Shown piece by piece: positions 259 to 20,176 of a stretch of DNA of 20,176 nucleotides. Location: IMG/VR virus record IMGVR_UViG_3300015179_000039. The stretch is one strand, 5' to 3'. This DNA is from a virus. Lineage: Duplodnaviria > Heunggongvirae > Uroviricota > Caudoviricetes. The notes under the pieces were generated by a model, which saw only the letters and a list, made by a program, of their open reading frames with translations, was not told the DNA's origin and ran no database searches. The translations under genes were made by a program, and so were the position numbers. Positions within the stretch are counted from its first letter, which is position 1. Every line of letters starts with the position of its first letter.

Positions 259-265
259 TCGTCTG

Positions 266-2778: not shown

Positions 2779-2855
2779 GCCTGAAATTTAAGCTGTTTAA
2801 AATCATGATGTTAGAAACACTGTTTTTTAACGATGGCGACAAAATGGCGGCAGCG

Positions 2856-3074: not shown

Positions 3075-3164
3075 TTTTCGAGTTCTCCCCATTTTTGCTA
3101 AATTCACAATAATGATACCGCATTATTCCATTTTGCAAACTTAAAAGTTCTCCATTGCGAAGAA

Positions 3165-4747: not shown

Positions 4748-7700
4748 GCGTCGTATCCCCCCTGATCGCTGTAGTTACTCCTGGCTTTTGCCTTCAGCCT
4801 GCGTTCACGTTCATCAAGCTGGCGTGCCACCTCCCGCGCAATATCCTGCGCACTTTGTCCTGGCTGCGTCTGAATGATGATCTGCGTCGGTGCCTCAATC
4901 CGTTGAACGAGCGGCACAGTGGCTGCGCGACTCACAATTGCTTCTCCACCTTTCGCGGGAAGTGCCAAAGGGTGCAACGGTGGAAGCTCTGCTGGCGCGG
5001 CAGCAACGCCCATCATTCCGGCAACAACGGCAGCCAGTGCAGCTGTATTTCTCCGGCTGGTCACATTTGCCGGGCCGTTAACAATTTCCGGCCCGTTTTC
5101 ACCGACGATGCCAAACTGCCCGCGCGGGATATACCCGCCGCTGTCATACATCCCCGCAAAGCCATATCCCCATGATGGAAAACCACCCGATGGCATCATC
5201 ACTTTACCGTCTGCATTCACCGTCGCAGGTTGCTGACGCGTCACGCTTTCCGGCAGTTTTGCCTTTGCGGCCTCTTTACTGACAATGCCGAGCTTCTCCA
5301 GCAACCAGGAAACGCCGGATTTCAGGGAGTCCAGCGGATGCATGACCATATTCAGCCCTTCTGCCAGTGCCTCCCCGAATCGTCGCCCCATTGCCGCTGC
5401 GCTCTGCAGTTCGGCAGAGGTCGACTTAACGGGCGTCAGCAGATCAGTAAACCAGCCCCACAGCGCCTGCACTTTGTCGCCAATCCACTGGAACACGGGC
5501 TTAAGCGGTTCGAACGCTGCACTGATGGGACCTGCCGCCGCTTTGAATCCTTCCACCACGCCACCGAGAAATGCGGTGATGGGTTGCCAGTATTTCCAGA
5601 CAACCAGCGCCACGCCCGCCAGTGCAGTAACCACAAGACCTATCGGACTGAGCAGAGCACCTAACAGACCAGATATGGCATACAGGGTAACGCGCAGCAT
5701 CGCCAGTGGACCAGATGCCAGTACTCGCAGCACCGTGCCTGCGGCGGCCAGTCCACCGCGCAGTACCGCCAGAGGATTCATAAACATCACAGCAACAGCA
5801 CGTAAACCGGATAATCCAGACCGCAAAAGTGCAACCGGCGCACCTGCTACAGTTTTCAGGACATTTCCCGTCAGTGATGCCGTGCGGCGCAAAGACGACA
5901 ACGGCGCAGTAAGTAAACCTGCGGCGTTGCCCGATGAAGCAAGCCCGCGTCGCAGCAGTGCCAGTGGTGCGCCAGCCAGCCAGGACAACGCGCTGCTTGT
6001 TCGAGTTACTGCTGCCGTAACGGAAGGTAACGTTTTGATACCCAGCACAGAGAATCCCAGACGGATCACTGCCAGCGGCCCCAGCACTGCAGCCAGCGCC
6101 ACCGCTAAGGTGCCGAGGCCGACGGTAACCGCAGCCACAACAGCCGATGCTTTCATCAGTGTGCCTGTCAGTTCCGGGTTAGCTTCCACCCAGCGACGCA
6201 ACGCCCCCGTGACGCTTTTCACCGTGTACAGAATATCCATCAGCGGCTGGCGCAGCGTTTCGCCCAGGCTGCTGAAGGTGTTCTGCGCTCCGGTTTTGAC
6301 CAGCAACCACTGCGCAGAAAGTGAGTCTTTGTTGATGTCGGATTCTTTCTGCATGGAACCGAGCGCATCATTGCCCGCTGTCAGTTTTAGCTGGCGCTGC
6401 AGTTCCGGCAGGTTGTTTGCCAGTTTCGCCGCGTCATCACCAAACTCTTTACCAAACAACATGGTCATGGCAGACAGACGCTTGTCCTGCGGCAGTGCGT
6501 TCACCTTCTCCAGCACACGCTGGATAGTTCCCATCGCATCCTTCGTCATCTGCTTTTCAATCACTTCAGGATTGAGTTTCAGCAGATTCATCCCTTCAAA
6601 GAAACTCTTGCTTTGCATGGTGGCAATGGACAATTCACGCACCATCGCGTTTGCTGCACTGGCTGCAACCTCCGGCGCAGCGCCCAGTGTCAGAAAGGTA
6701 GAACCCAGTGCCGCCGCTTTACGATAATCCAGACGGTCAGCCACACCGCCCAGACGTTGCATCACATCAATGATGTCCGCCCCTTTCGACATGGCGTTAT
6801 CATCCAGATAGTTCAGCGCATCGCCGAGCTGTTCAATATTGCGGGTAGGTATTTTGTAGAGCTGGGCGATTTTCCCCAGACTTTCTGACAGTTCATCCGC
6901 TGGCAGCTCAAAGGCTGTTGCCGCCTTTGCTGCCGTACTGGCGAAGGCCAGCAGGTCACGTTTCTGGTCTTCCCAGCTGTCGTCAGGGTTTGCGACGTTC
7001 ATGCGCGCACCACCTTCAACCAGTGCAGCGAAGTCCACCGCACCGTTTTCCATCGGCAACTGTTCGCTGGCAGCCTTGATGGCATCCTGCATTTCATAAA
7101 AACGTGCAGTGCGGTTGCCATTATCGTCACGCAGACCATTGACCTGCTTTGCCACACCTTTCATGGCATCTTCCATGCTGGTATAGCTTTTTACTGCCGC
7201 CATCACTGGCGCACCCATTGCCAGCCCTGCAGCCGTGGTAGTGGCTCCGGCTCCTGCAATACGGTCGCGCACCTCCAGCGAACGGGCATAACTGGCACGC
7301 GCCGCATTCATCCTGCGCTGAGCTTCACCCAGTCGCTTCAGCCGCGCCTCCTGTTTCGACAATTCCTGGTTATAACGTGATGTTTCACGGGCTAAACGGG
7401 CAGTTGCTCCCGCATCATCTTTCGCAGAAATTCCCGCCCGGTACAGTTCTGCACGCACAAGCGCCGTTTGCTTCTGCAAATATTTTTGTTGTTCTTCCAG
7501 GCGTTGGACTGCCAGCGTTTGCCGACCTAAAGCCACAAGGTGCCGTTGTGATGGTTGTTCCATCGCCTCCAGCTCAGAGCTAAGCAAATTAGCCTTCTGT
7601 CTGGCATAGTTCAGCCTGTCGCCTAACTTCTTGTTATCGGCCTGCAGCTTGCGAAATTTTTCCAGGCTGTTACCCGCCTGATTGAGTTGCTTTAATGCGT

Positions 7701-7821
7701 CACGGGAGTTTCTGATTGCACCAGCCAGCTCTTTCGAACTGGCCTGTGCAGCACGGAATGGGCGGGTGAGTTTGTCAACCGCATTAAGAATGACCTGCAG
7801 GCGCAGGTTATTATCACTCAT
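4744..7821 (-). CDS. T: tail tape measure protein
   Basis: 1025-aa ORF with a coiled-coil-rich N-terminal half and Ala/Gly/Leu-rich degenerate repeats near residues 580-720, in the P2 gpT position after E/E'. Several long plus-strand ORFs in 4855-6888 are antisense artefacts of this GC-rich gene. Confidence 0.9.
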   Translation of the reverse strand: MSDNNLRLQVILNAVDKLTRPFRAAQASSKELAGAIRNSRDALKQLNQAGNSLEKFRKLQADNKKLGDRLNYARQKANLLSSELEAMEQPSQRHLVALGRQTLAVQRLEEQQKYLQKQTALVRAELYRAGISAKDDAGATARLARETSRYNQELSKQEARLKRLGEAQRRMNAARASYARSLEVRDRIAGAGATTTAAGLAMGAPVMAAVKSYTSMEDAMKGVAKQVNGLRDDNGNRTARFYEMQDAIKAASEQLPMENGAVDFAALVEGGARMNVANPDDSWEDQKRDLLAFASTAAKAATAFELPADELSESLGKIAQLYKIPTRNIEQLGDALNYLDDNAMSKGADIIDVMQRLGGVADRLDYRKAAALGSTFLTLGAAPEVAASAANAMVRELSIATMQSKSFFEGMNLLKLNPEVIEKQMTKDAMGTIQRVLEKVNALPQDKRLSAMTMLFGKEFGDDAAKLANNLPELQRQLKLTAGNDALGSMQKESDINKDSLSAQWLLVKTGAQNTFSSLGETLRQPLMDILYTVKSVTGALRRWVEANPELTGTLMKASAVVAAVTVGLGTLAVALAAVLGPLAVIRLGFSVLGIKTLPSVTAAVTRTSSALSWLAGAPLALLRRGLASSGNAAGLLTAPLSSLRRTASLTGNVLKTVAGAPVALLRSGLSGLRAVAVMFMNPLAVLRGGLAAAGTVLRVLASGPLAMLRVTLYAISGLLGALLSPIGLVVTALAGVALVVWKYWQPITAFLGGVVEGFKAAAGPISAAFEPLKPVFQWIGDKVQALWGWFTDLLTPVKSTSAELQSAAAMGRRFGEALAEGLNMVMHPLDSLKSGVSWLLEKLGIVSKEAAKAKLPESVTRQQPATVNADGKVMMPSGGFPSWGYGFAGMYDSGGYIPRGQFGIVGENGPEIVNGPANVTSRRNTAALAAVVAGMMGVAAAPAELPPLHPLALPAKGGEAIVSRAATVPLVQRIEAPTQIIIQTQPGQSAQDIAREVARQLDERERRLKAKARSNYSDQGGYDA

Positions 7822-8250
7822 CGTTGGCCCCGCTTCTCTGAATCGCTTTATACCGCCATTCCAGCACTTCGGTCAGCGGCATAACGTCAGTAACGGATGG
7901 CGGCCAGTGAAAGATGGTGGCGATATCAGCCACCAGATCGTCAACCGTCAGGCTGTCGGTAAACCGGCAAGCACCGACTTCTTCAACAAAAAAGTGACAA
8001 CCTCAACCGACATGGCAGTGAGATCTGCCGGGTCCATCTCTGCAATTTCCTGTGCAGTCAGTGCCGGACTGGAGATGCGGGGGATCACGGTCATCATCGC
8101 GTTCACATCCATATCCATAATGGCCTGCAGGCGTGTACCGCGCAGCGCACCGGACTGCGGTTTACGCAGCACAATTTCGGTGATTTCTGTTTTACCGCGC
8201 TTGATGGGGGTATCCAGTTGAATAGTCTTTTCAGTCTGCTTATCGCTCAT
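7814..8250 (-). CDS. E: tail assembly chaperone E+E' (programmed -1 frameshift product)
   Basis: Slippery heptamer T TTT TTG on the minus strand at about 7987-7993, in frame as ACT-TTT-TTG near the 3' end of E. The -1 frame is open for 57 codons (VEEVGACRFTDSLTVDDLVADIATIFHWPPSVTDVMPLTEVLEWRYKAIQRSGANDE) and stops at 7814-7816, 8 nt inside T. This matches the known P2 E/E' arrangement. Confidence 0.75.
7948..8250 (-). CDS. E: tail assembly chaperone E (zero-frame product)
   Basis: 100-aa ORF immediately upstream of T and downstream of FII, the P2 gpE position. Confidence 0.85.
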   Translation of the reverse strand: MSDKQTEKTIQLDTPIKRGKTEITEIVLRKPQSGALRGTRLQAIMDMDVNAMMTVIPRISSPALTAQEIAEMDPADLTAMSVEVVTFLLKKSVLAGLPTA

Positions 8251-8304
8251 TTTGCTGTCCTGTAAATTGGGTTCTGGCGCGGTATCCCGCGCCGTTCAGA
8301 TACA

Positions 8305-8820
8305 TCAGAGGCCGAGGGCGTTGCGGTGCGCTTCCATCAGGTCCACACCGTCCACAATTTCCACCATGTTGATAAGGTCCACTTCATAGAGCACCTCACC
8401 ATTTATAGTCAGCTTCGCGTAGCTGTTGGTACTGGTCACTTTGGTGGTGTTGCTTTCGCCCGTCTTCCACTCGCCGGAATCCACTTCTTTGTGACGTCCA
8501 CGCACCACAAGCTCCACGGCCTGCACTTCCCCGGTATCGTCACGCTGGATAGAGCCGGTAAAGCGCAGCTGGATGCCATCCACAGTGGCTTTGCCCATCT
8601 GCTTAAACAGCAGCAGTTCAGTACCACCAATGGAAAATTCTGTGTCCAGAGCACTGTCATCAAGCCCCAGATCCACATCCACTGCACCCGGCATTCCGCC
8701 GCCGCGATACTTCTCATATTTGCGGGTGAATTTCGGCAGTGTCAGCGACTCAACGATCCCCTGCCAGTTGTTCCCGTCGTTAAACAGGTTCAGGTGTTTT
8801 AATTTGCGTGGTAAAGCCAT
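8305..8820 (-). CDS. FII: tail tube protein FII
   Basis: 171-aa ORF (MALPRKLKHLNLFNDGNNWQG...) directly downstream of the sheath gene; size and position match P2 FII. Confidence 0.9.
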   Translation of the reverse strand: MALPRKLKHLNLFNDGNNWQGIVESLTLPKFTRKYEKYRGGGMPGAVDVDLGLDDSALDTEFSIGGTELLLFKQMGKATVDGIQLRFTGSIQRDDTGEVQAVELVVRGRHKEVDSGEWKTGESNTTKVTSTNSYAKLTINGEVLYEVDLINMVEIVDGVDLMEAHRNALGL

Positions 8821-8829
8821 GTTGTCCCC

Positions 8830-10002
8830 TTACGCGCTAACCTGGCTGGCAAAATTCACCAGGTACTGATCGGTGATGCGCTGGCGCAGCATCAGGTTTT
8901 CAAGTGGCGGCACTGGCGTGTAGTCGTAGTCGATGGTGAGCTTCCCGGCTTTCAGCGTGTCTTTATCGTTCACCGACTCGTCCAGCCAGCAATCACCACC
9001 AATGAGATAGCCCTGACTGACCAAGCTGCGCATTTTGGCGCGGATACCTTCGATAATGTCGCGCGCCAGCGACGGGTTCAGCGGTTTGTCCACCGCCCAC
9101 ATGTGCGCTTCTGCCATCGTGTCCGTCAGCACCTGCGCCGTGCGGGTGTAGTTTTCGAAGGCAAAGAGCGGGTCATCACTCAGGCAGCGGGAACCCCAGA
9201 AGCGGAAACCGTCTTTACGCACAAGTGTGGTGACGTCGTTCTGGTTCAGCAGACCTGCATCGGTTGCCGGGTCCTGCAGATCCCAGAACACATCTGCAGA
9301 AATTCCGGTGACACCGTTCACGCCCACGTTGGACAGGCTTTTGTGCCATCCGGTCTGCTCGTCAATTTTGGCGCGCAGACCAAGCGCACGGGCGGTGGCA
9401 TATGCCGTTGCTTCGGCATTCAGCACCGTGTCCCAGCCAGTAAAGTCAGGCCAGATCAGCATTCCTTCGCGCTGGCTGAAGTTTTCACGGTAAGTGATCG
9501 CCTCCTGTACCGTCTTGCAGCCATACGCTGACAGGTAAGCAAATCCACGCAGTCTTTGCGCCACGCTCAGCAACTCAGTAGCTACCGCCTTGGTGTCGTG
9601 GCCTGGCACGCCGAGAATGCGCGGTTTAACGCCGAGCTGTGACTGGGCAGATAGCAGGGCTTTCATGCCTGTTTTTTTACCTTCAGCAGTCACAGCGCCG
9701 ATGATATTGGTCGTGGTTTCGTCTTCCGTTTCACCCTGCGGCACACGCACAACAACGGTCACGGGTTTTGCCTGGTCAGCGATGGCATCCAGCGAACGGG
9801 CCAGCGTGCCGGACTCACCCGCTTTACCGCTGGCAGTCAGCACATCAGTGATCAGCACGGGTTTATTAAGAGGAAACATTTTTGCATCGGCATCATCGCC
9901 CGTGCAGACCATACCCACGATGGCGGTGCTCACTGTGGTAATAGATCGGGTGCCTTCGTTGACTTCAACAACGCGCACCCCGTGGTGGTAATCCTGAGCC
10001 AT
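8830..10002 (-). CDS. FI: contractile tail sheath protein FI
   Basis: 390-aa ORF ([30 protein letters not shown]...) of sheath size, first gene of the FI-FII-E-T-U-D block. Confidence 0.92.
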
Positions 10003-10078
10003 AGTGGCGAACCTCCTGATTGGATTAGGCTTCGCCCTATGTTGAAGTGATTGAGCCTGACAAACAGCTAAGCGCAGT

Positions 10079-10096
10079 TGTGCCGTTATTCATACA
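10079..10096 (-). promoter_or_regulatory. candidate Ogr-binding element (TGT-N12-ACA) of late promoter PF
   Basis: tgt-gccgttattcat-aca lies about 85 bp upstream of the FI start codon in the FI/invertase intergenic region. Consistent with P2 late promoters carrying a TGT-N12-ACA dyad near -55. Coordinates approximate. Confidence 0.4.
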
Positions 10097-10144
10097 AAAT
10101 GACGGTATTTGTCTGCTTGCAGGGATAATCAACATAATGCTGAT

Positions 10145-10717
10145 TCAGGGGGATTCATTGCTCTTATTTGCCGGAAATTTTCTATAAATTGTGGAAACAC
10201 CTACATCAAAAATCAGTGCAATACGCTGTCTTGATTCTCCAGCCTCGAGTAAACGTCCAATCTGTGCCCACTGTTCGGTGGTCAACTTAGGACGGCGTCC
10301 ACCTACTCTGCCTTTGGCGCGAGCTGCAGCAAGCCCCGCCCTGGTACGTTCAACTATCAGTTCGCGCTCCATTTCAGCCAGGGCCCCCATGACATGAAAA
10401 AAGAAACGGCCCATTGGGGTACTGGTATCAATACTGTCAGTCAGGCTTCGGAAATTCACGCCGCGCTGGCGCAACTCTTCTATCAGCGTAACAAGATGCC
10501 GCATACTGCGCCCCAACCTGTCCAGCTTCCAGACAACCAGTGTGTCACCTGCCAATAGTGTCCTGAGCAGTTTTTTAAGCCCCGGTCTGTCGGACTTAGT
10601 GCCACTGATTTTGTCCTCAAAAATCCGCTCACATCCCGCGCAGTTCAGTGCATTACGTTGCAAATCGGTGTTCTGGTCATTTGTTGATACGCGTACATAG
10701 CCAATAAGCATGATCAT
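10145..10717 (-). CDS. serine recombinase, DNA invertase (Hin/Gin/Pin/Cin/Min family)
   Basis: 190-aa ORF with N-terminal resolvase catalytic motif (IGYVRVSTNDQ, catalytic Ser) and a C-terminal HTH (GESRQRIALIFDVGVSTIYRKF). Lies adjacent to an inverted-repeat-bounded tail-fibre cassette. Confidence 0.93.
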   Translation of the reverse strand: MIMLIGYVRVSTNDQNTDLQRNALNCAGCERIFEDKISGTKSDRPGLKKLLRTLLAGDTLVVWKLDRLGRSMRHLVTLIEELRQRGVNFRSLTDSIDTSTPMGRFFFHVMGALAEMERELIVERTRAGLAAARAKGRVGGRRPKLTTEQWAQIGRLLEAGESRQRIALIFDVGVSTIYRKFPANKSNESP

Positions 10718-10738
10718 CCCCCTGAATAAAAACCGGAG

Positions 10739-11113
10739 ATGATGCCAGTTAGCCGTTATCTCTGCATTTTCTTAAACGTTGGTTTGGGAGAAGCGGCAAA
10801 ACGAAATGTGGGAACAGGGGAAAATCAGATACCTGATATGTCATCATATGCATCAGGTTCAGGCTGGCGAAAAATGCCAGATGGTTCAATTGAACAGTGG
10901 GGACGAATTAGTTTTCCTGATGAACACGGGCCTGTATCCGCCAATGTTTCATTCCCGATTCCATTTACACAGACACCGGGCATTGTAATTGTGTGCGATG
11001 GTGGTTTCGGGGGCGGGAATATGTGGGGGGCGACCAACTGGAGCACTACCGGCTTCATAGCTCACTGCAATTATGGTCTTGAAGGTGGTGCGTTTTTCGC
11101 TAAGGGTTGGTAA
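10739..11113 (+). CDS. silent alternative tail-fibre C-terminal cassette (Sv'-like)
   Basis: The ORF has no credible own start. It shares the LGLGE junction with H at the crossover site and continues with an unrelated Gly-rich C-terminus (...[14 protein letters not shown]...). Only codons after about 10792 would be used after inversion. Confidence 0.7.
10767..10792. repeat. recombination site (hix/gix-like), invertase-proximal
   Basis: ttttcttaaacgttggtttgggagaa; its reverse complement TTCTCCCAAACCAACGTTTAAGAAAA resembles Hin hixL (TTCTTGAAAACCAAGGTTTTTGATAA, recalled from memory). Inverted partner of the site at 12577-12602. Coordinates within 2 nt. Confidence 0.6.
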
Positions 11114-11556
11114 TGATGAAATATCTGTACGTAAACAACCTGGCATATCCTTACGAACTTCAGTCTCTTTATGTTGAAAAAGGTGAATGGCCGGAAGAAA
11201 AAGGTGTTGATATAGACGAAGTAATTTTCAGGGAATATTTCTATGATACACCACCAGAAGGAAAATACAGATGTGTCGGAGAGGATGGACTGCCTGCATG
11301 GGCAGATATTCCTCCACCAACACGTGAAGAACAAATTGCATCAGCCGAAACTAAAAAGCAGCAATTGATTAATCAGGCCAACGAATACATCAACAGTAAA
11401 CAATGGCCAGGTAAAGCATCAATTGGTCGTCTGAAAGGTGAGGAACTGGCGCAATATAATTTGTGGCTGGATTATCTGGACGCACTGGAACTGGTCGATA
11501 CTTCCGGTGCGCCAGATATTGAATGGCCTACGCCTCCGGCAGTTCAGGCCAGATGA
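11107..11556 (+). CDS. tail fibre assembly protein (alternate, partner of the silent cassette)
   Basis: 149-aa ORF with the C-terminal tail-fibre-assembly signature (...[25 protein letters not shown]), shared with the convergent tfa at 11528-12130. Start overlaps the end of the Sv' cassette. Confidence 0.85.
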
Positions 11557-12130
11557 CATCCGGCGCGGTGCTGGTATCTGTTGCCGTCACCGCGTCAATG
11601 TAATCCAGCACAGCGTTAAGCCGGGTTGTTTCTGCCTGCGTCAGTTTACGTCCGGCCTGCAATTTCAGTTGAATCAGACTGATGGAAGCCATTGCAGTAT
11701 CAATCAGCGACTGGCGCTGTGCTTCTGCTGCATCTACTGCGGCGCTATGCTGTGCCTCGGTATCCGTCACCCATTTCTCACCATCCCATTTATCGTATGG
11801 CGTTAATGGGGCGATAGTGGTTGTATTTTCAGGGTAATCACCCGGAGCTGTGATTTCTTTTGATTCTCCTGTTTCAGTGCTATAGACCGTTTCACCGCGA
11901 TGGTCTGGCACATATTCCCATGAGTTAAGATCTGCAGAACGGCAAATTGCATAACCAGCTTTATATGAGCTAGGAGCATCTAAACAGGAACTTGCCGGGA
12001 TACCGACGCCGACAGCGATATATTCATTTGATGTGGAAATATATTCCCGTGTTTCGCCATCATAGTTATAGACGGTAATATTCCCCGCCTTCGTGGCAAT
12101 AAGCTCGATATTTAATACGGCTTTATTCAT
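11528..12130 (-). CDS. G: tail fibre assembly protein (currently expressed orientation)
   Basis: 200-aa ORF immediately downstream of H, with C-terminal ...[25 protein letters not shown] typical of gpG/Tfa chaperones. Confidence 0.85.
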   Translation of the reverse strand: MNKAVLNIELIATKAGNITVYNYDGETREYISTSNEYIAVGVGIPASSCLDAPSSYKAGYAICRSADLNSWEYVPDHRGETVYSTETGESKEITAPGDYPENTTTIAPLTPYDKWDGEKWVTDTEAQHSAAVDAAEAQRQSLIDTAMASISLIQLKLQAGRKLTQAETTRLNAVLDYIDAVTATDTSTAPDVIWPELPEA

Positions 12131-13638
12131 CAGGCTGCCCTCACGATATAGTTAAATGCAATATTCCGTGGGCGAGTATCGGCAGGAACGACATACATTT
12201 CACCAATTGCCCGCTCATTAGAGTTGTTAAGCAATAGGCTTGAGCCATTACTGTCATGACCCGTAATTAAGATATCATTGGACAAAATAAGTGAGCCCGT
12301 ACCTGCAGGAATACCATAAATTCCCATATCAAATTTAATATAACCAACACGCGCGCTCTGTGCAGACATAACGCTGCGACCAGTATCTACTGAACGACCA
12401 TCATCCCAGCCACGAATAAATTCACCGCGTAAATCAGGCAATTTATTGGTCGGGTAAGCCCTTGCCAGTTCCGGGTATTCTTCAGCAGAAAAAGCCGCAC
12501 CATTGCATTTCAGCCAGCCTGTTGGCGGAGTGGCTGAAGGCCACGGAACAGGCACCCCAACCGGTAATGCAGAGCCTTCTCCTAAACCAAGGTATGTGAG
12601 AAGACCAGCTACATCCTTTCCACTCAAATTAGTCAGCGTATTGTCCAGCGGTTGTTTACCTGCCAGTGCATTAAGCATTGTCGTGGCAAAGTTCGGGTCA
12701 TTCCCCAGCGCTGCCGCCAGTTCGTTCAGTGTATCCAGTGCCGCAGGTGCAGAACCCACCATTGCCGCAATTGCCGATTTCACAAAAGCCGTGGTGGCAA
12801 TCTGTGTATTGTTGACCGACTGTGCCGCAGTAGGTGCGGTTGGCGTTCCGGTGAGTGCCGGACTCGACAGCGGCGCTTTCAGTGCCAGCGCATTGTTAAT
12901 GGTGGTACTGAATTTCGGATCATTGTTAATGGCTGCGGCTATTTCTTTCAGCGTGTCCAGCGTGGCTGGCGCACCATTAATAAGAGCCGTCAGAGCCGCC
13001 TGAACAAACGCGGTGGTCGCAATCTGCGTAGTATTATTCCCCGCCGCTGGCGTTGGCGCTTTGGGGGTTCCGGTAAACGTCGGACTTTCTTTGAGTGCAT
13101 ACTGTGAATGCGGGTCCGGTGCGGCAAGATGTTTTGCCATCTGATCATCCGCGTACACCTTCAGCTCCAGTGCCTTGTCATCCACATACTTGCGGGTTGC
13201 CAGCACTACGGCAGGGTCGATTTTCAGGGTGATATTGTCCGTACTGCTGGTAATCAGCACCATGCGCACGGTCTGAGTGCGCCCGCTACCTTCAGCCAGT
13301 TGCGGCTTATAGCTTTCCGGGCAGTTGCCCACGGCAATCAATGCCCCGGACTCATCAAACAAGCCCACTTCACGTATCCACCAACCGCCCTCGTTTTCAG
13401 GGATCACCTGTTCGGCAATAATCTGGCTGCTGTTCTGCGGGTCGATATAGAGCATATTCAGCGCAGCCCGGCGTTTCTCATTTACCAGTGCAGTCTGCTT
13501 TGAGTCTGGCGTTGGCAATACTCCGCCGCCATCGCCGACCGCCATATGGGTAATTTTTAGCGGCACACCGAGCGCGGCGGCGCTGGCAAGTTTCGCCGCG
13601 CCAATATCCGTCAGCAGGGTATAAAATTTTGTGCTCAT
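12130..13638 (-). CDS. H: tail fibre protein H
   Basis: 502-aa ORF with a P2 H-like N-terminus (MSTKF...MAVGDGGG), two tandem modules of about 72 aa, and a variable C-terminal domain after the LGLGE crossover motif (residues about 351-354). Confidence 0.9.
   Translation of the reverse strand: MSTKFYTLLTDIGAAKLASAAALGVPLKITHMAVGDGGGVLPTPDSKQTALVNEKRRAALNMLYIDPQNSSQIIAEQVIPENEGGWWIREVGLFDESGALIAVGNCPESYKPQLAEGSGRTQTVRMVLITSSTDNITLKIDPAVVLATRKYVDDKALELKVYADDQMAKHLAAPDPHSQYALKESPTFTGTPKAPTPAAGNNTTQIATTAFVQAALTALINGAPATLDTLKEIAAAINNDPKFSTTINNALALKAPLSSPALTGTPTAPTAAQSVNNTQIATTAFVKSAIAAMVGSAPAALDTLNELAAALGNDPNFATTMLNALAGKQPLDNTLTNLSGKDVAGLLTYLGLGEGSALPVGVPVPWPSATPPTGWLKCNGAAFSAEEYPELARAYPTNKLPDLRGEFIRGWDDGRSVDTGRSVMSAQSARVGYIKFDMGIYGIPAGTGSLILSNDILITGHDSNGSSLLLNNSNERAIGEMYVVPADTRPRNIAFNYIVRAA
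12577..12602. repeat. recombination site (hix/gix-like) inside H
   Basis: ttctcctaaaccaaggtatgtgagaa; the first 14 positions match the reverse complement of the 10767-10792 site at 13 of 14. It sits on the codons for YLGLGE of H. Confidence 0.6.
12649..13086 (-). repeat. tandem duplication of a module of about 216 bp (72 aa) within H
   Basis: Protein repeats GTPKAPTPAAGNNTTQIATTAFVQAALTALINGAPATLDTLKEIAAAINNDPKFSTTINNALALKAP and GTPTAPTAAQSVNNTQIATTAFVKSAIAAMVGSAPAALDTLNELAAALGNDPNFATTMLNALAGKQP, with the corresponding direct DNA repeats. Confidence 0.8.
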
Positions 13639-14240
13639 GGATTCACTCTCATTGTGTCAATAACATGGACCGCCCCGCCTTCATGCGCGGTGCCGCCAGA
13701 AATAATTGTTTCGTTGATATACGGATAGATCGTGATTTCTTCGCCAAGATAGCTGGCGGCCCCCACCCAATGCGGACCGCTGGTCTGCAGATTGATGGAC
13801 ATGCCGATCATGTGACGGCTACATGGTTTGGCATCGCTTATCAGCCGCTCAAGTTCCAGATAGGTATCTTCAGTGATGCCCTGGTCCTGCACGCCGATAT
13901 CCAGGCGAAACGTGCCCGGTGTTTCTCCGGTCTGCCACCACTCAATAATGCGGATCAGGAATCCGAACGGTTCCACCACCCGCCGCACGGCACTGGTGGT
14001 TCCTTTATGCTGATGAATATAAAAAGCATCCTTCACTACCTGGCGTTTGACGCTTTCTGTCCAGCCCTCGTCCCAGCGATCCACAGAGAACGCCCAGGCG
14101 AGATAAGGCAGGAAGCTGACCGGACAGGTAGCCGGATTCCACAAGTCACGCAGCGGCACCTGCAGATCAGAAATCCCGCTGCACGTTTGCGCCAGTCGGC
14201 GCTCCAGTGAAGTTGAACCCGGTGGCAGCAGACTATTCAT
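13635..14240 (-). CDS. I: baseplate assembly protein I
   Basis: 201-aa ORF between J and H, the P2 gpI position. Overlaps H start and J stop by a few bases, typical of a translationally coupled operon. Confidence 0.85.
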   Translation of the reverse strand: MNSLLPPGSTSLERRLAQTCSGISDLQVPLRDLWNPATCPVSFLPYLAWAFSVDRWDEGWTESVKRQVVKDAFYIHQHKGTTSAVRRVVEPFGFLIRIIEWWQTGETPGTFRLDIGVQDQGITEDTYLELERLISDAKPCSRHMIGMSINLQTSGPHWVGAASYLGEEITIYPYINETIISGGTAHEGGAVHVIDTMRVNP

Positions 14241-15141
14241 CCGTTCCTCCGTTGGTTACGCTCCACTGCGTACATGATGCCGCCTGTGTTTTGTTCAGGA
14301 CCACATCCGCCAGAGGAGAAGCCAGCTCCACACGCTGCACACCCTCAACATGCAGGGCGGCAAAGATGGCGCTACGGCGAATATCCCGACCAAGACGCGT
14401 CTGACTGGCGATGTACTTCTGCAGGCTGGCTTTTGCCGCTGCCATTACCGGCTCTGCTTCCGGTCCCGGATAGAGAAAAATGGTGGCTTCCACGCGATAC
14501 GGGATGATTTCTGCGCTGCGAACCGTAAGACGGTCAGCCACCGGGCGGACGTTCTCACTGTTCAGAGCTTTTTCCACCACGTCCAGCAGGTCTTTTTCTG
14601 CGGTTCCATCGCCTTCGCGGCTAAGGACAGTCAGCACCACCTCTGCAGGTGCCGGGCTGGTTGCACTGGCATCCGCCACCCGACCGTCGGCGCTTCGGGC
14701 ATGAAATTCATAAGCTGCAGTTGGCCCCGCAACTGAAAGCCCTTCAAAGGCTGCAGGCACACGCAGGCGTAACGCTTCATCGCTTTCCATCACAGCTGCA
14801 ACGGGCGGCACAGCGTCATTATCAGCAGGCGTCACCGTCAGGCGTTTCACGTTGTAGTTGGCAGCGAGCTGGTCCAGATCGCCGCCCATCGCATAAGCCA
14901 CCATCACTGCCTGCGCGGCTTCGTTAATGCGCTGGCGCAGAAGCAACTCACGGTAAGCGTTCTCCTGCAACAATTTGGTGACGGGTTCAGATTCCAGTTC
15001 CAGCGTACGCATCACGGCTTCCTGCTCATCTTTCGGATGAAGCGCCACAAATTCTGCCTTGCGTTCGGCAAGCAGCGTCTCAAAGTCCGGCACATCCACA
15101 ATCTGCGGCGCAGGCAACTGCGAAAGGTCAATCACTGCCAT
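14233..15141 (-). CDS. J: baseplate wedge protein J
   Basis: P2 J-like sequence (MAVIDLSQLPAPQIVDVPDFETLLAERKAEF...). The track ORF extends to 15180 from an alternative start; I place the start at the ATG near 15141, which is preceded by AGGAG. Confidence 0.88.
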   Translation of the reverse strand: MAVIDLSQLPAPQIVDVPDFETLLAERKAEFVALHPKDEQEAVMRTLELESEPVTKLLQENAYRELLLRQRINEAAQAVMVAYAMGGDLDQLAANYNVKRLTVTPADNDAVPPVAAVMESDEALRLRVPAAFEGLSVAGPTAAYEFHARSADGRVADASATSPAPAEVVLTVLSREGDGTAEKDLLDVVEKALNSENVRPVADRLTVRSAEIIPYRVEATIFLYPGPEAEPVMAAAKASLQKYIASQTRLGRDIRRSAIFAALHVEGVQRVELASPLADVVLNKTQAASCTQWSVTNGGTDE

Positions 15142-15487
15142 TCTCTGCTCCTGTTGATACGGAAAGGGACACAGGCACACCGTTATTCCGCCGCCCGGTC
15201 AGCTCCACCACCATAGAACCGTCAAAGTTGCTGTTGATGGTGATGGAATCCAGCGTCAGCCGTGGCTCCCAGCGACTCAGCGCCACATACACTGCCGACA
15301 TGACCTGCAGGCGTAATGCCGGATTTTGTGGCTAATCTATCAGTGCCGACAGTAGGGAACCATATTCCCGACGGGCAATGCGGCTACCCTGCGGCGTCAG
15401 CAGAATGTCCCGCACCGACTGGCGCAGATGGTCAATATCAGTAATGACTTTGCCGCTGGTATTGTTCATCCCGCTATAAAGCGTCAT
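15128..15487 (-). pseudogene. W: baseplate protein W interrupted by an in-frame TAG (amber) at codon 52
   Basis: Reading the minus strand from the ATG at 15487 (ATGA overlap with the V stop) gives MTLYSGMNNTSGKVITDIDHLRQSVRDILLTPQGSRIARREYGSLLSALID, then TAG at about 15332-15334, then 67 more in-frame codons (PQNPALRLQVMSAVYVALSRWEPRLTLDS...) ending 13 nt inside J. The ORF track shows no minus-strand ORF of 60 aa or more across this interval. Confidence 0.7.
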
Positions 15488-16062
15488 ACCGGGCCTCCGG
15501 TTGTGTCGCCGCCTTTCAGGACGCCAGTATGCTGATGTGCATCAACCACAATTCCGTTAGAACTCATTGCACCGCCGCCCTGGGTAACACCACCATTGAT
15601 CACTACTTCGCTGTTAATACGCGTGCGGTCAGCCTCCAGCACAAACTCACTGGTTTTCAGGGTGATGTTGTCGGCAGCCTCAATGACCATGGATTTGATG
15701 CCCCTGACATACCAGCGCCCGGTGGCGGGTTCGTATTCAAACCAGCCACCGTCAGGATGTTCTGTCACGCAGGCGTCCGCCGACGTCGAAGGTGGCGCGA
15801 ACTGATTCGAATAGACAGCGGGCAACGCAAAGGCGGTTTCCAGATTGCCTCCCAGACTCAGCAGCACCACCTGCTCACCTTCCGATGGTCGCCACCATGT
15901 GCGGGCATTCCCGGCACGCAGCGTCAGCCAACTGATCCAGTTAGTTTCAAGGTCGCCCGTTTTCACCCGGCAAAGCCAGTTCTCCCGGTCCACTTCGGTA
16001 ACTACACCTGTGCGGATCAGGTTGGTGATAAGGCGCATGATTTCGGTTAATTGTGCGTTCAT
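15484..16062 (-). CDS. V: baseplate spike/hub protein V
   Basis: P2 V-like sequence from the ATG at 16062 (MNAQLTEIMRLITNLIRTGVVTEV...), about 192 aa. The track ORF 15484-16305 adds an N-terminal extension through AT-rich non-coding DNA, which I reject. Confidence 0.9.
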   Translation of the reverse strand: MNAQLTEIMRLITNLIRTGVVTEVDRENWLCRVKTGDLETNWISWLTLRAGNARTWWRPSEGEQVVLLSLGGNLETAFALPAVYSNQFAPPSTSADACVTEHPDGGWFEYEPATGRWYVRGIKSMVIEAADNITLKTSEFVLEADRTRINSEVVINGGVTQGGGAMSSNGIVVDAHQHTGVLKGGDTTGGPV

Positions 16063-16108
16063 AGATATATGATGACAGATGAAAATTTGTTTATAACTTC
16101 TTGCAAAT

Positions 16109-16126
16109 TGTGGTATCGATGGTACA
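16109..16126 (-). promoter_or_regulatory. candidate Ogr-binding element (TGT-N12-ACA) of late promoter PV
   Basis: tgt-ggtatcgatggt-aca centred about 55 bp upstream of the V start codon, closer to the ATG than expected for a -55 site. Overlaps the likely promoter of the divergent AT-rich gene. Confidence 0.35.
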
Positions 16127-16165
16127 AATTGACAAAAGGATAAAAAACAACCAATAGGTGGATAA

Positions 16166-16972
16166 ATGAGTGTTATGAATCCAATAAGTTCTAATATATT
16201 TAATGCTGAATTTTTAAACACCCCGGCAGCGGCACTTGCCGCATGGATTTCCATTATTGGAGCTGTTATAACTTTGGTGACGATAGTTATAAGAGCACTA
16301 TTCAAATATAGAAAATCTCATGATGTAATTTTGAAAAAATCAGGAATACCTGCGTTTATATTAAATTTCTTTCTTATAAAAATATCATTAAAAAGGCTGC
16401 CTACTATCACATGGGCTGAAAAATCATTCACGGTTCTATTTTCGCTTCTTTTTTTGTGTGCAATTTATCTTTTTGGTCCAGTTTTCATCCAAGCCATTAG
16501 AACCCCACCAAATAGCACATTGCTTTATTGGATAAAGTCCGGTGAATCATTTTATATGTCAAAAAAAATGGCGACTGCAGCTACAATATTAACCACTCCT
16601 GATTGGGAAATATCAAAGGATGATTGCGAAGAGTCATCCTCTGCCAGTACAGAGAAGTACAAATCATTAACTATCGAACATAAAGAAATTCTTTGTAAAC
16701 TACTAACCACTGATGAAGGGAATGCTTACATTGATGAAGAAGTCAAGAATTTCGTTAAAGACAAATTTTTTATCTATTCCTTTGCCCCAACAACTATATT
16801 TATTCTATTATGGATTTCTTTGGGTTTTATACTGACCATTCACTATTCTAAAAAAGTTAGAAAATATATTCTAACTGAACAAAAAAATGCAATTCATTGG
16901 GCATATGGTGAATTCAAGACAGAAGGAATCTATTCAATATATCAAGAGTTAGAACATAAGACTCACCATTAA
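16166..16972 (+). CDS. AT-rich moron gene: hypothetical multi-pass membrane protein
   Basis: 268-aa ORF with ATG start and an AGGTGG Shine-Dalgarno 6 nt upstream. GC content is visibly far below the flanking tail genes. Predicted TM helices near residues 20-45, 88-110 and 205-230 (possibly one more at 60-75), plus a charged loop of about 95 aa. No motif I recognise. Confidence 0.7.
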   Translation: MSVMNPISSNIFNAEFLNTPAAALAAWISIIGAVITLVTIVIRALFKYRKSHDVILKKSGIPAFILNFFLIKISLKRLPTITWAEKSFTVLFSLLFLCAIYLFGPVFIQAIRTPPNSTLLYWIKSGESFYMSKKMATAATILTTPDWEISKDDCEESSSASTEKYKSLTIEHKEILCKLLTTDEGNAYIDEEVKNFVKDKFFIYSFAPTTIFILLWISLGFILTIHYSKKVRKYILTEQKNAIHWAYGEFKTEGIYSIYQELEHKTHH

Positions 16973-17360
16973 GACCCAGCAGGCGGCGCTCTGCGTAACG
17001 GACCTCCGGTCCTTTGCGACTGACGCGATCACGCAGGCCGTAATGGTGAACACGGGCAATACGCTGCACCTTGCCTTCAAACTGTACGCTGGCAGAGTCG
17101 GCGCTGGCGGCAGTTTTCAGGTATTTTGTGGTGCGCAGCTTTGCAAACATCTGACGTTTGATGCGGCCTTTTTTGCTGCGTGCTGTTACCCTGCGCGGTT
17201 CATAACTGCTGCCATCTGGATTGCGCTGCATCCTGATATTCTGCTGCTGTGTCCGGCGCAGTTCCTGCGCCAGCTGGCGCATCATGCGGCTTCTCGTGGC
17301 TGGTTCCAGATTCGCCAGCAAGGCACTCAGCCAGTCGTCCACCTTCTGCAGTTCAGCCAC
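16914..17360 (-). CDS. S: tail completion protein S
   Basis: 148-aa ORF (MAELQKVDDWLSALLANLEPATRSRMMRQLAQELRR...) in the P2 gpS position after R. Its last 19 or so codons lie in AT-rich DNA antisense to the moron gene. Confidence 0.85.
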   Translation of the reverse strand: MAELQKVDDWLSALLANLEPATRSRMMRQLAQELRRTQQQNIRMQRNPDGSSYEPRRVTARSKKGRIKRQMFAKLRTTKYLKTAASADSASVQFEGKVQRIARVHHYGLRDRVSRKGPEVRYAERRLLGLNGESYVLTLDILNRFLLS

Positions 17361-17784
17361 GTTTCACCGTCCACATTTCTTCAGGTTCATCGGGTTCTGC
17401 TACAGCTTCAACGCTCGACACACTGCCGTCAGTGCTGACCAGCACACGCTCCGTCAGTTGCAGGTTCAGGCTGATATCACAGACATCGTTGCGCAGAATA
17501 TCCACCTCAAAGGTGAATAGTTTTTCCCGTAACGCCGGGTTATTGATGGCATCGGGCTGGTTATCCCTCAGCCACAGCAAAACCGGGGCCATCAGCAGAT
17601 TCTGGTCGCCGCTGAAATCCTCAATCACCACGTTCAGGGTGTAGCGGTACTCCCATGACATGGAGCTGGCCCCCGTGGCAACCAGCGAACCGTTATCCAC
17701 AAACAGATGCAGTTTGTCCGGGTTATTGCGGACATAAGGCACCGCTTTATTGAGGGCGTGGCGCAGGGATTGTGGTTTGTTCAC
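17353..17784 (-). CDS. R: tail completion protein R
   Basis: P2 R-like ORF (VNKPQSLRHALNKAVPYVRNNPDKLHLFVDNG...). The track begins at a TTG at 17805; I favour the GTG about 21 nt downstream, which is preceded by AGGAG. Start is uncertain. Confidence 0.82.
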   Translation of the reverse strand: MNKPQSLRHALNKAVPYVRNNPDKLHLFVDNGSLVATGASSMSWEYRYTLNVVIEDFSGDQNLLMAPVLLWLRDNQPDAINNPALREKLFTFEVDILRNDVCDISLNLQLTERVLVSTDGSVSSVEAVAEPDEPEEMWTVKRG

Positions 17785-18037
17785 TGTTTCGCTCCTGACA
17801 CGCAATAATCATATCCACTTTGTCTGCACAGACCGCCCAGGCGGCCTCCGTTTCATCCAGCAACGCGTTCAGATCACCGTTAGTGCGCGGCGCTGCCTGA
17901 TCCAGCCGACACGGCGTCACTCGCGGACAACCACTGACGGTAAGCTGCACCTCCGGTGAGTGTGGGGCGTTCCCGCAGCCGGATAATGTCAGCAGGCAAA
18001 GGAGTATCAGCCCAGCGGCGTAAATCCTCGTTCTCAC
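17747..18037 (-). CDS. lysC: outer-membrane spanin lipoprotein (LysC/Rz1-like)
   Basis: 96-aa ORF with a signal peptide and lipobox (MRTRIYAAGLILLCLLTLSGC) and a Pro-rich C-terminus. Starts inside lysB in another frame and extends past its stop. Likely GTG start. Confidence 0.8.
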   Translation of the reverse strand: MRTRIYAAGLILLCLLTLSGCGNAPHSPEVQLTVSGCPRVTPCRLDQAAPRTNGDLNALLDETEAAWAVCADKVDMIIACQERNSEQTTIPAPRPQ

Positions 18038-18308
18038 GTTTCAGTTCCTCGATCCGGTGTTGTCGTTGTCTCAGCAGCGCGCTGGTCTGTTCTGCTTCGG
18101 CATAGAGCCGCGCCTGCTCCCGGTTATTGGTTTCAGTCAGAATAGACAGGCTGATAAGCTGGCTGTTGCTCTTTGCCAGTGCCTGGCTTTTGCTCTGCAG
18201 CTCGTCTGCCTGCGTGCTGATGGTCTGGCTGGCATCAGCCAGCCGCCACGTCTGCCAGCCCAGCGCCGCCAGTAATAACGCCAGCACAACCAGCAGCAAC
18301 CGGTTCAT
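17880..18308 (-). CDS. lysB: inner-membrane spanin (LysB/Rz-like)
   Basis: 142-aa ORF with an N-terminal TM helix (LLLVVLALLLAALGW) followed by a coiled-coil-like periplasmic region; in the P2 lysB position. Confidence 0.85.
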   Translation of the reverse strand: MNRLLLVVLALLLAALGWQTWRLADASQTISTQADELQSKSQALAKSNSQLISLSILTETNNREQARLYAEAEQTSALLRQRQHRIEELKRENEDLRRWADTPLPADIIRLRERPTLTGGAAYRQWLSASDAVSAGSGSAAH

Positions 18309-18682
18309 GCTGCTACCTGTTGCGCCATCTGATTACGGGTGATCCAGAAGGCAATAACGGTCAGTAGATAAAAGACCAGGGTAATAGCCCACCCCGTCCA
18401 AGCGAGACTTACAACAATCAGCAATCGCATCACCCAACTGGTAAATACGTTTTCTTTTCGGGTAATTGTCTTCAGCAAAGATGCCCTCAACTCCTGCCAG
18501 AGCGGGCCATTCTTAATTAACGCAACCAGTGCTACCGGAATTACCGCCCATGTCAGCAAACAGGCTACCCAAACGCCGGACGCTGCCAGTACCGGAAAAA
18601 TCCCCTGCGGATACACCATTGCTGCGATTAACAGCGCCATCCATAACATCAGAAACAGTCCGCTGATTAATTTCTTTTTCAT
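18305..18682 (-). CDS. lysA: lysis-timing membrane protein LysA-like
   Basis: Four-TM hydrophobic protein starting at MKKKLISGLF, with GGAG 7 nt upstream. The track ORF extends to 18754 without an RBS. In the P2 lysA position. Confidence 0.75.
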   Translation of the reverse strand: MKKKLISGLFLMLWMALLIAAMVYPQGIFPVLAASGVWVACLLTWAVIPVALVALIKNGPLWQELRASLLKTITRKENVFTSWVMRLLIVVSLAWTGWAITLVFYLLTVIAFWITRNQMAQQVAA

Positions 18683-18683
18683 T

Positions 18684-19196
18684 TCAGTTTGCTCCCTGTA
18701 AACACCAGGCCATCTCCCGCGCACGGCGGTTATCCAGCCCCTGATTAAACACACCTTTTACATACACCCAGCGCGGCAACTGTCGGCACGCATCCGCCCA
18801 GCGCCGCTGATTGAGCAATTTCACCAGCGTGGAACTGCAGGCATTGCCCGTCCCCACGTTGAAGGCAAACGACACCGCAGCGTCATACACCTTCTGCGGC
18901 GGCTGTTGCTTCACACACCTTTCCAGCGCCCGCTCCACACGCAGCACGTTGGAGATCAGCCCTTCTGCTGCCTGTCGCTCCGTAATGGTTTTGCCGGGAA
19001 TGACGCCCGACGTATTACCAATGCCGTCGGTCCAGACACCCGCGCTGCACTGATACGGCTGCAGACGACAACCTTCGTAATCGGCAATCAGTTTCAGCCC
19101 TTCCACGGAGGTGTGAAGCTGCTGAAAACCCGGCAGCGTGGCAGCAATAGCCAGCACGGTCCCGACAAGGCAGCGTTTAACGATTGATGGATTCAT
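18684..19196 (-). CDS. K: SAR endolysin (T4-lysozyme/GH24 type, P1 Lyz-like)
   Basis: 170-aa ORF with a weakly hydrophobic Gly/Ala-rich N-terminal segment (CLVGTVLAIAATLPGF) and the E-x8-C-x5-T catalytic triad (E41, C50, T56), plus Cys9 and Cys43. Occupies the P2 K position. Confidence 0.88.
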   Translation of the reverse strand: MNPSIVKRCLVGTVLAIAATLPGFQQLHTSVEGLKLIADYEGCRLQPYQCSAGVWTDGIGNTSGVIPGKTITERQAAEGLISNVLRVERALERCVKQQPPQKVYDAAVSFAFNVGTGNACSSTLVKLLNQRRWADACRQLPRWVYVKGVFNQGLDNRRAREMAWCLQGAN

Positions 19197-19392
19197 AGTC
19201 CTCCCGCGAGATCTGCCCGTCGCGCAGAAGCTGGTAGGCTTTGTGTTTGTAGTACCAGTTGATAGCCAGCATCAGCACACCAATCATCAGGCCGCCCAGC
19301 GTTGAGGCATCCTTGATGGACAAATCGCCCAGCCAGGCCAGCACAACGGCGATGCAGTACGTGATAAAGGCGCTGATTCGCTCAAGCGTCAT
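19177..19392 (-). CDS. holin (two-TM, pinholin-like)
   Basis: 71-aa ORF with two hydrophobic helices (ISAFITYCIAVVLAWLG and LGGLMIGVLMLAINWYY) and a charged C-terminus, immediately upstream of the endolysin in the P2 Y position. Confidence 0.75.
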   Translation of the reverse strand: MTLERISAFITYCIAVVLAWLGDLSIKDASTLGGLMIGVLMLAINWYYKHKAYQLLRDGQISREDYESINR

Positions 19393-19395
19393 AAT

Positions 19396-19599
19396 TCAGT
19401 CCCATAGCTGGACGGTCTGCACGGTGGTGGTGGTCGGAATGTCCGGCAGCTCCACCTGCAGCCCGTGAGGTAAAAAGGGGCCATATTCGGCAAGCCCCGG
19501 ATTTGCCTTCAGTACCTGCTCCGTGACACCCTGCGTGCGCCCGTAATGACGCCAGCAAAGCGCGTCCACCGAGTCATACTGATGCGCACGCACTTTCAT
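19396..19599 (-). CDS. X: tail protein X
   Basis: 67-aa ORF (MKVRAHQYDSVDALCWRHYGRTQGVTEQVLKANPGLAEYGPFLPHGLQVELPD) closely resembling P2 gpX in length and sequence. Confidence 0.88.
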   Translation of the reverse strand: MKVRAHQYDSVDALCWRHYGRTQGVTEQVLKANPGLAEYGPFLPHGLQVELPDIPTTTTVQTVQLWD

Positions 19600-20126
19600 C
19601 AGATAAGCTCCACTGTGCAGTGCGGCGCATCCTGCACCCGGCTGATGGCCCAGCGGGCGTCACGCCACAAATCACCGCTGGATTCCGCCAGTTCCTCGCC
19701 CCGCTTCACACCGGATGCCGTGGCGTCATAGTCCTGATAACGCTCGTTGAGCATGGCGCGTGCCCAGCAGTAAACCGCGTTGAAATAGTGATGAATGCGC
19801 TCACTTTTGCCGTCCAGCTGTTCAGCCGGAACCTCTGCCAGCGAGGCATATCCCAGCATCTGCTGACGTCTGCGAAACTCATACAGCTCTGCGTTGACCT
19901 CCGAAATTGCCGACAGCGCAACCTGCTTTAAACGCGGCTGCGTCACCGTGCCGTCAGTGCGCATCACGCTGCGAAACTCCGACAGGTCCACATCAGGCCA
20001 GAACGGTGTATTTCTGATGATTTCCGCCTGTTCCGGTGCCTGTTCTGGCGCAACAAACTTCATGCTGCTTTCTCCTGAAATAGAGGGCGGTGGACGGAGT
20101 TTTGATGTGGCTGTGCCTTTCGCCAC
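19599..20126 (-). CDS. L: head completion/stabilisation protein L
   Basis: C-terminus ...RVQDAPHCTVELI and position upstream of X match P2 gpL. Start is either the track ATG at 20126 or the ATG near 20063 (MKFVAPEQ..., preceded by AGGAG). Confidence 0.85.
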   Translation of the reverse strand: MAKGTATSKLRPPPSISGESSMKFVAPEQAPEQAEIIRNTPFWPDVDLSEFRSVMRTDGTVTQPRLKQVALSAISEVNAELYEFRRRQQMLGYASLAEVPAEQLDGKSERIHHYFNAVYCWARAMLNERYQDYDATASGVKRGEELAESSGDLWRDARWAISRVQDAPHCTVELI

Positions 20127-20155
20127 CCCGTGCCGCCCGTGCGCAGGGGCACGTT
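20060..20155 (-). CDS. M: possible 3' end of terminase small subunit gene M (partial)
   Basis: Based on P2 gene order only. An open frame ending in TGA overlaps the internal ATG of L, but the frame cannot be confirmed from so short a fragment. Confidence 0.3.
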   Translation of the reverse strand, partial: NVPLRTGGTGWRKAQPHQNSVHRPLFQEKAA

Positions 20156-20176
20156 AGATCGGAAGAGCGTCGTGTA
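20156..20176. other. Illumina TruSeq adapter sequence (non-biological)
   Basis: agatcggaagagcgtcgtgta is the start of the standard Illumina adapter read-through sequence AGATCGGAAGAGCGTCGTGTAGGGAAAGAGTGT. Confidence 0.85.

What the first reader, a model, noticed from the sequence alone, without database searches (positions are those of the whole stretch)
20156..20176. Illumina adapter at the window terminus: contig end is an assembly artefact
Seen in sequence: the last 21 bases are the Illumina adapter start AGATCGGAAGAGCGTCGTGTA joined to phage DNA just upstream of the L start. This is non-biological sequence that escaped trimming. The prophage therefore ends artificially here and the true neighbouring sequence is unknown. 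Adapter contamination can also mislead homology searches.
Basis: seen in the sequence. Interest (0 to 1): 0.5.

Follow-up and report, generated by a model that had tools for sequence, protein, structure and literature searches.

The report
Sequencing adapter stuck on contig end
The last 21 bases of the window are a leftover Illumina library adapter, not biology, and they cut an ordinary P2-like E. coli prophage short just before its small terminase gene.

Summary
Bases 20156-20176 are an exact copy of the first 21 bases of the Illumina TruSeq universal adapter in reverse complement (the Read 2 read-through sequence). They sit on the + strand at the 3' end, pointing outward. Every comparison with native DNA stops at base 20155: 58 phage records, 991 complete E. 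coli records and 9 NCBI contigs. In all relatives inspected the sequence continues CTGTCAGCGG, which holds the stop codon of the small terminase gene M 3 nt past the junction.

The junction therefore lies in the M-L spacer, 92 nt upstream of the L start codon. The window contains no M coding sequence. The same 21-mer occurs at contig ends, pointing outward, in at least 120 IMG/VR viral contigs and at least 120 contigs of unrelated bacterial phyla. This topology has been published for adapter contamination (PMC11536531).

The missing neighbour is predictable. In strain MLI104K1 the same prophage, at the same ybjL/rcdA site, runs on about 17 kb (M, N, O, P, Q, cargo, replication genes, integrase).

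This is a technical artefact of low biological interest. It cannot be decided without the reads whether the adapter caused the contig break or only extended an existing dead end.

The parts
20156..20176 (+). Illumina TruSeq-type adapter fragment: first 21 nt of the Read 2 read-through sequence AGATCGGAAGAGCGTCGTGTAGGGAAAGAGTGT, which is the reverse complement of the universal adapter. It is non-biological.
   Evidence: Exact match, 0 of 100 shuffles. 21 of 21 bases match the universal adapter reverse complement, against 13 for the indexed adapter. All homology to native DNA ends at 20155.
20064..20155 (-). Native M-L intergenic spacer of the P2-like late (O) operon. It is cut 3 nt short of the M stop codon. 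It carries a rare A allele at 20145.
   Evidence: Alignments with MLI104K1, phage 500465-1 and E. coli H7. Annotations of relatives. The P2 record has a 99-nt M-L spacer inside the O operon. The exact 35-mer 20121-20155 is present in 4 complete genomes.
19599..20063 (-). gpL head completion/stabilization protein gene (154 aa). It is the last complete gene before the artificial end.
   Evidence: Pfam PF05926 Phage_GPL, E 6e-51. The exact protein is found on hundreds of public contigs, and in all nine places shown the small terminase gene lies directly upstream.
2856..20155 (-). The portion of a P2-like (Peduoviridae, Wadgaonvirus-like) prophage present in the window: ogr, D, U, T, E, FII, FI, invertase plus invertible tail-fibre segment, H, I, J, W, V, S, R, lysis genes, X, L. 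It is inserted next to ybjL.
   Evidence: Annotated syntenic region in E. coli MLI104K1. 99.97% identity to GCA_969164985.1 over 17.8 kb. Pfam hits.

Best explanation
The 21 terminal bases are the start of an Illumina TruSeq-type adapter that was not trimmed from the reads. A library fragment of the genome ended at base 20155. After A-tailing and ligation, a read that was longer than its insert ran through the fragment end into the adapter, giving native...GTT|AGATCGGAAGAGCGTCGTGTA. The assembler took this read, or its PCR duplicates, as the continuation of the path. The adapter leads nowhere in the genome, so the contig stops there. The true DNA continues into the small terminase gene M and the rest of the prophage, which must lie on another contig of the same assembly. 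Shown: the identity of the sequence, its terminal outward-facing position, the exact breakpoint of homology, and the native continuation in relatives. Inferred: the read-through mechanism, and that the window end is the contig end.
For: The match to the adapter is exact from its first base and includes the Read 2-specific part. Homology to 58 phage records, 991 complete E. coli records, the whole-window search and 9 NCBI contigs carrying the identical L protein always ends at 20155. Relatives continue CTGTCAGCGG into M, including a genome that shares the rare A allele 11 nt before the junction. In IMG/VR, 122 of 125 occurrences of the same 21-mer lie within 200 nt of the contig end they point to, and 92 run to the very last base. 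In species-representative genomes, 120 of 121 occurrences do so, across unrelated phyla. PMC11536531 describes exactly this pattern: forward adapters at contig ends, reverse complements at contig beginnings, and CGTCGTGTAGGGAAAGAGTGT as the reverse-specific part. It argues that the contamination breaks contigs.
Against: No reads, coverage or assembly metadata are available, so the read-through event is not observed directly. The source contig was not found in any searchable collection. That the window end equals the contig end is therefore inferred from the coincidence, not seen.
Confidence: 0.97

Rival explanations
1. The adapter is an artefact but did not cause the break. The contig would have ended near here anyway, because of a coverage gap or a repeat such as a second P2-like prophage sharing the capsid/terminase module. 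An adapter-bearing read merely extended the dead end. This is a variant of the main explanation, not an alternative to the artefact verdict.
For: Some complete E. coli genomes carry up to 3 copies of this region. The break lies at a gene boundary, a typical border of phage mosaic modules. Other short-read contigs of the same prophage break at a different structural feature, the invertible segment at 10785, which shows that assemblers do fragment this prophage.
Against: The median is one copy per genome, with only 1020 places in 986 genomes, so a repeat is a priori uncommon. A repeat-boundary contig end would normally show shared native sequence, not an adapter. The spacer folds no better than shuffled sequence (z -0.49), so there is no sign of a structure-induced coverage gap. 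PMC11536531 argues that adapters themselves break contigs.
Confidence: 0.4
2. The junction marks a real, recurrent physical DNA end, such as a packaged phage genome terminus (cos or pac cut), to which adapters were ligated at high frequency. Under this reading the position would be biologically meaningful even though the adapter is not.
For: Defined phage termini are over-represented as read starts in ligation libraries (established knowledge, the principle behind PhageTerm). The spacer is G+C-rich.
Against: In the P2 record the cohesive end is at bases 1-19, next to Q, 5.9 kb from the M-L spacer, and that spacer lies inside the O operon with no DNA end annotated. The P2 cos 19-mer has no match with up to 3 mismatches in the window. 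The only cos-like stretch in the full relative prophage lies about 8.9 kb beyond the junction (L002 29649-29677, weak).
Confidence: 0.01
3. The window end is not the contig end. The contig continues with more adapter, or is a chimera in which the adapter is internal and joins unrelated DNA.
For: 3 of 125 adapter occurrences in IMG/VR loci are internal, up to 12.4 kb from an end. The left edge of the window is clearly a cut inside a longer sequence, because it starts at the grxA ATG while relatives continue.
Against: A window cut falling by chance 21 nt into an adapter is very unlikely. 92 of 125 viral-contig cases and most genome cases end inside the adapter, and 4 of the 121 genome cases stop exactly 21 nt into it.
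Confidence: 0.04
4. The 21 bases are native sequence that resembles the adapter by chance.
For: None.
Against: About 1e-8 matches are expected by chance (own arithmetic), and 0 of 100 shuffles matched. No relative has anything closer than 7 mismatches. All alignments stop at 20155.
Confidence: 0.001

Closest known systems
Illumina adapter contamination at contig extremities in microbial genome databases (Moeller lab, BMC Genomics 2024, PMC11536531)
   Same: The universal adapter core AGATCGGAAGAG is followed by the reverse-specific part CGTCGTGTA. It is in forward orientation at the end of the contig, a few tens of bases at most, and the contig is broken there.
   Different: Nothing essential. 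Here only 21 nt are present, and the case is one contig end, not an assembly-wide survey.
Adapter-terminated contigs in IMG/VR and in GTDB representative genomes
   Same: The identical 21-mer faces outward within 200 nt of the end in 122 of 125 and 120 of 121 cases.
   Different: Those contigs come from unrelated organisms. Their median adapter stretch is longer (32 nt matched in IMG/VR) than the 21 nt here.
P2-family prophage at the ybjL/rcdA site of E. coli (for example strain MLI104K1, NZ_CP116923.1; Escherichia phage 500465-1, Wadgaonvirus)
   Same: Same flanking genes grxA-ybjM-ybjL and the same late-gene order. Identity is 97.6-99.6% to MLI104K1 and 99.97% to GCA_969164985.1.
   Different: The relatives continue through M, N, O, P, Q, cargo genes, replication genes and integrase to rcdA. 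The window stops at the M-L spacer because of the adapter.

Membership tests
Illumina TruSeq-type adapter read-through artefact at a contig end | Exact identity to the adapter, starting at the adapter's first base (the A-tail A followed by GATCGGAAGAGC) | tested here: met
   21 of 21 bases match from adapter position 1.
Illumina TruSeq-type adapter read-through artefact at a contig end | Presence of a read-specific extension beyond the 13-nt common core | tested here: met
   The tail GTCGTGTA that follows the 13-nt common core matches the universal/Read 2 adapter. The indexed adapter matches only 13 nt. The sequence is named as reverse-specific in PMC11536531.
Illumina TruSeq-type adapter read-through artefact at a contig end | Located at the sequence terminus and oriented outward (forward at the 3' end) | tested here: met
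   It occupies the last 21 bases on the + strand. The topology is the same in 122 of 125 and 120 of 121 control cases.
Illumina TruSeq-type adapter read-through artefact at a contig end | Homology to native relatives ends exactly at the adapter's first base, and the relatives continue differently | tested here: met
   All alignments end at 20155. The relatives continue CTGTCAGCGG.
Illumina TruSeq-type adapter read-through artefact at a contig end | The same sequence occurs in unrelated organisms, so it is not lineage-specific biology | tested here: met
   At least 120 contigs from Anaerolineae, Planctomycetes, Akkermansia, Clostridia and other groups, and at least 120 viral contigs.
Illumina TruSeq-type adapter read-through artefact at a contig end | Read-level support: short-insert reads running into the adapter, and native reads spanning the site | not testable with these tools
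   No reads are available and the source assembly was not identified.
P2-family cohesive end (cos) as a real DNA terminus | 19-nt cohesive-end sequence located next to the portal gene Q | tested here: not met
   P2 cosL lies at 1-19, beside Q, 5.9 kb from the M-L spacer. There is no cos match in the window with up to 3 mismatches. A weak cos-like match in the relative prophage lies 8.9 kb away.
P2-like (Peduoviridae) prophage late region (context of the junction) | Gene order ogr-D-U-T-E-FII-FI ... H-I-J-W-V ... S-R-lysis-X-L with family-specific domains | tested here: met
   Synteny with annotated relatives. Pfam hits Phage_GPL, Ogr_Delta, Phage_tail_fib and Caudo_TAP.

The most novel reading that the evidence does not exclude
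Base 20155 is a preferred physical breakpoint of the prophage DNA. Examples would be a site-specific nick or cleavage in the M-L spacer, or a fragile G+C-rich site. Adapter ligation would then recur at this position, and the junction would report a real property of the DNA as well as a trimming failure.
Probability: 0.01. Interest if true: 0.3.

Novelty: not a real feature. Interest (0 to 1): 0.05.

Why it matters
The finding matters only for data hygiene. The 21 bases should be masked before any homology search, gene call or submission. The apparent truncation of the prophage at L must not be read as a deletion or a defective prophage. In this strain, M, N, O, P, Q and the early region most likely exist on another contig. 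This is one more instance of a documented, widespread problem: adapter contamination that fragments assemblies. It has no biological significance.

Tried and rejected
1. Sequencing error next to the junction. The only mismatch to the best complete genomes in the last 779 native bases is A at 20145, 11 nt before the adapter. No complete genome has the exact last 70 native bases. I suspected a low-quality contig tip. However, the exact 35-mer 20121-20155 occurs in 4 complete genomes, and E. coli H7 continues natively after it. It is a rare real allele, and the idea is dropped.

2. Structure-induced coverage gap. The 92-nt spacer folded as DNA is no more stable than shuffles (-16 kcal/mol, z -0.49). 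There is no support.

3. Physical phage end (cos). Rejected.

4. Finding the source contig. The junction 23-mer is absent from genome contigs, viral contigs and metagenome contigs. The exact tail-fibre H protein is not on record. The nearest records are GCA_969164985.1 (5 mismatches in 17.8 kb) and Logan ERR13601042_44 (identical over window 1-10785 only). The source was not identified.

5. Other contaminants. No Nextera, indexed TruSeq (beyond the shared 13 nt) or PhiX start sequence was found in the window.

Full report
**Observation.** The last 21 bases of the window (20156-20176, + strand) read AGATCGGAAGAGCGTCGTGTA. A pattern search allowing up to 3 mismatches finds this single site, and none of 100 dinucleotide-preserving shuffles gives a match. 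Compared with standard adapter sequences, which I supplied from my own knowledge, the 21 bases equal positions 1-21 of the reverse complement of the TruSeq universal adapter. That is the sequence seen when Read 2 runs through a short insert. The indexed (Read 1) adapter shares only the first 13 bases, so the read-specific part is present. No Nextera, PhiX or further TruSeq fragment of 12 nt or more occurs elsewhere in the window.

**Where native DNA ends.** The last 800 bases were searched by megablast against 50,697 phage records and gave 58 hits. Every row listed ends at query base 779, which is window 20155. The same query against 5,426 complete E. coli genomes gives 991 records, 981 of them covering at least 80% of the query. 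The rows listed again end at 20155. The whole-window search behaves the same way.

Nine NCBI contigs that encode exactly the window's L protein align up to 20155 and no further. Direct alignments show that the relatives continue ...CACGTT|CTGTCAGCGGCTGTCATTGCGC, whereas the window continues ...CACGTT|AGATCGGAAG. The native base after the junction is C and the adapter starts with A, so the breakpoint is unambiguous.

**What the junction interrupts.** On the minus strand the window carries gpL (19599-20063; Pfam Phage_GPL, E 6e-51). In annotated relatives the next gene upstream is the small (endonuclease) terminase subunit M, whose stop codon lies 3 nt beyond the point where the window's native sequence ends. 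The P2 reference record shows the same arrangement: M at 5157-5900, L at 6000-6509, both inside the O operon. The adapter is therefore fused to the M-L intergenic spacer, 92 nt upstream of the L start codon. No M coding sequence is in the window.

It fails to refute: in 12 fetched loci that contain M, P2 itself included, the closest 21-mer differs at 7 or more positions.

**Context.** The window begins at the ATG of grxA and runs through ybjM and ybjL into a P2-like prophage. The prophage gene order is ogr, D, U, T, E, FII, FI, an invertase with an invertible tail-fibre segment, H, I, J, W, V, a DUF6216 gene, S, R, lysis genes, X and L. Strain MLI104K1 has the same prophage at the same site, and there it continues for about 17 kb beyond the window's end. 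That stretch holds M, N, O, P, Q, cargo genes, replication genes, repressor and integrase, and ends at rcdA. A draft genome, GCA_969164985.1, is 99.97% identical over 17.8 kb.

**Controls on the adapter reading.** Of 125 occurrences, 122 lie within 200 nt of the contig end towards which they point, and 92 run as adapter to the very last base. Orientation is + at right ends and - at left ends.

In the species-representative genome collection the scan again hit the limit at 120 contigs. These come from unrelated phyla, mostly MAGs. There, 120 of 121 occurrences lie within 200 nt of the end they point to, and 4 stop exactly 21 nt into the adapter, as here.

A published survey (PMC11536531) reports the same topology. 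It names CGTCGTGTAGGGAAAGAGTGT as the reverse-specific adapter part and argues that such contamination breaks contigs, since trimming and re-stitching improved N50.

**Mechanism.** The following steps are inferred from established knowledge of ligation-based Illumina libraries.
- A fragment ended at base 20155.
- After A-tailing and adapter ligation, a read longer than its insert read through into the adapter.
- The adapter was not trimmed, and the assembler followed this path.
- The path dead-ends because adapter sequence is shared by countless unrelated reads.

It cannot be decided without the reads whether the adapter branch caused the break or only extended a dead end that already existed (a repeat or a coverage gap). 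Three points argue against the repeat or gap variant. Most complete genomes have one copy of this region (1020 places in 986 genomes). A repeat boundary would show shared native sequence rather than adapter. The spacer has no unusual folding propensity (z -0.49).

**Rivals considered.**
- A real phage DNA terminus is rejected. P2's cohesive end lies beside Q, 5.9 kb from the M-L spacer. The cos 19-mer has no match in the window. The only weak cos-like stretch in the full relative prophage lies 8.9 kb further on.
- Chance resemblance is excluded by the statistics and the alignments.
- The window might stop inside a longer chimeric contig. This cannot be excluded formally, because the source contig was not found. 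It would, however, require the window cut to fall by chance 21 nt into an adapter.

**A lead that did not hold.** The single difference from the best complete genomes in the last 779 native bases is A at 20145, 11 nt before the adapter. No complete genome contains the exact last 70 native bases. That suggested an error-prone contig tip. However, 4 complete genomes carry the exact 35-mer 20121-20155, and one of them (E. coli H7) continues natively into M. It is a rare natural allele.

**Verdict.** This is an ordinary, well-documented technical artefact and not a biological feature. Interest is low. The practical consequence is to mask the 21 bases and not to interpret the prophage as truncated.

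Noticed in passing
window 10145-12601: Invertible tail-fibre segment. A serine recombinase (10145-10717, minus strand; Resolvase + HTH_7) lies next to imperfect 26-bp inverted sites at 10768-10793 and 12576-12601 (20 of 26 matching, AAAC..GGTTT core, like Gin/Cin/Hin crossover sites). The alignment to MLI104K1 breaks at 10793 and resumes at 12576. Five independent short-read public contigs (Logan/ENA) all stop at window 10785, probably because both orientations coexist.
   Followed up: partly
window 16166-16972 (+): A DUF6216 gene (268 aa) sits antisense between baseplate gene V and tail gene S of the late operon, as a moron-like insertion. It is present in many relatives.
   Followed up: no
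window 20145: The A allele in the M-L spacer is rare. Only 4 of about 950 complete E. coli genomes with this spacer carry the exact 35-mer 20121-20155, and the others inspected have G.
   Followed up: yes
window 1-2856: The left edge of the window starts exactly at the grxA ATG and is a window cut, not a contig end, because relatives continue into ybjC/nfsA. The prophage is inserted between ybjL and rcdA, a site occupied in 673 of 5,426 complete E. coli genomes at 80% or more window coverage.
   Followed up: partly
IMG/VR loci L003-L122: 3 of 125 occurrences of the adapter 21-mer in viral contigs are internal, up to 12.4 kb from the end they point to. These may be chimeric joins through adapter sequence.
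   Followed up: no
L002 29649-29677 (E. coli MLI104K1 prophage): A weak match (79% over 29 nt, E 0.07) to the P2 cohesive end and its flank lies in an intergenic gap between cargo genes and a DinI-like gene. It is a candidate cos site of this prophage lineage, about 8.9 kb beyond the window's end.
   Followed up: no
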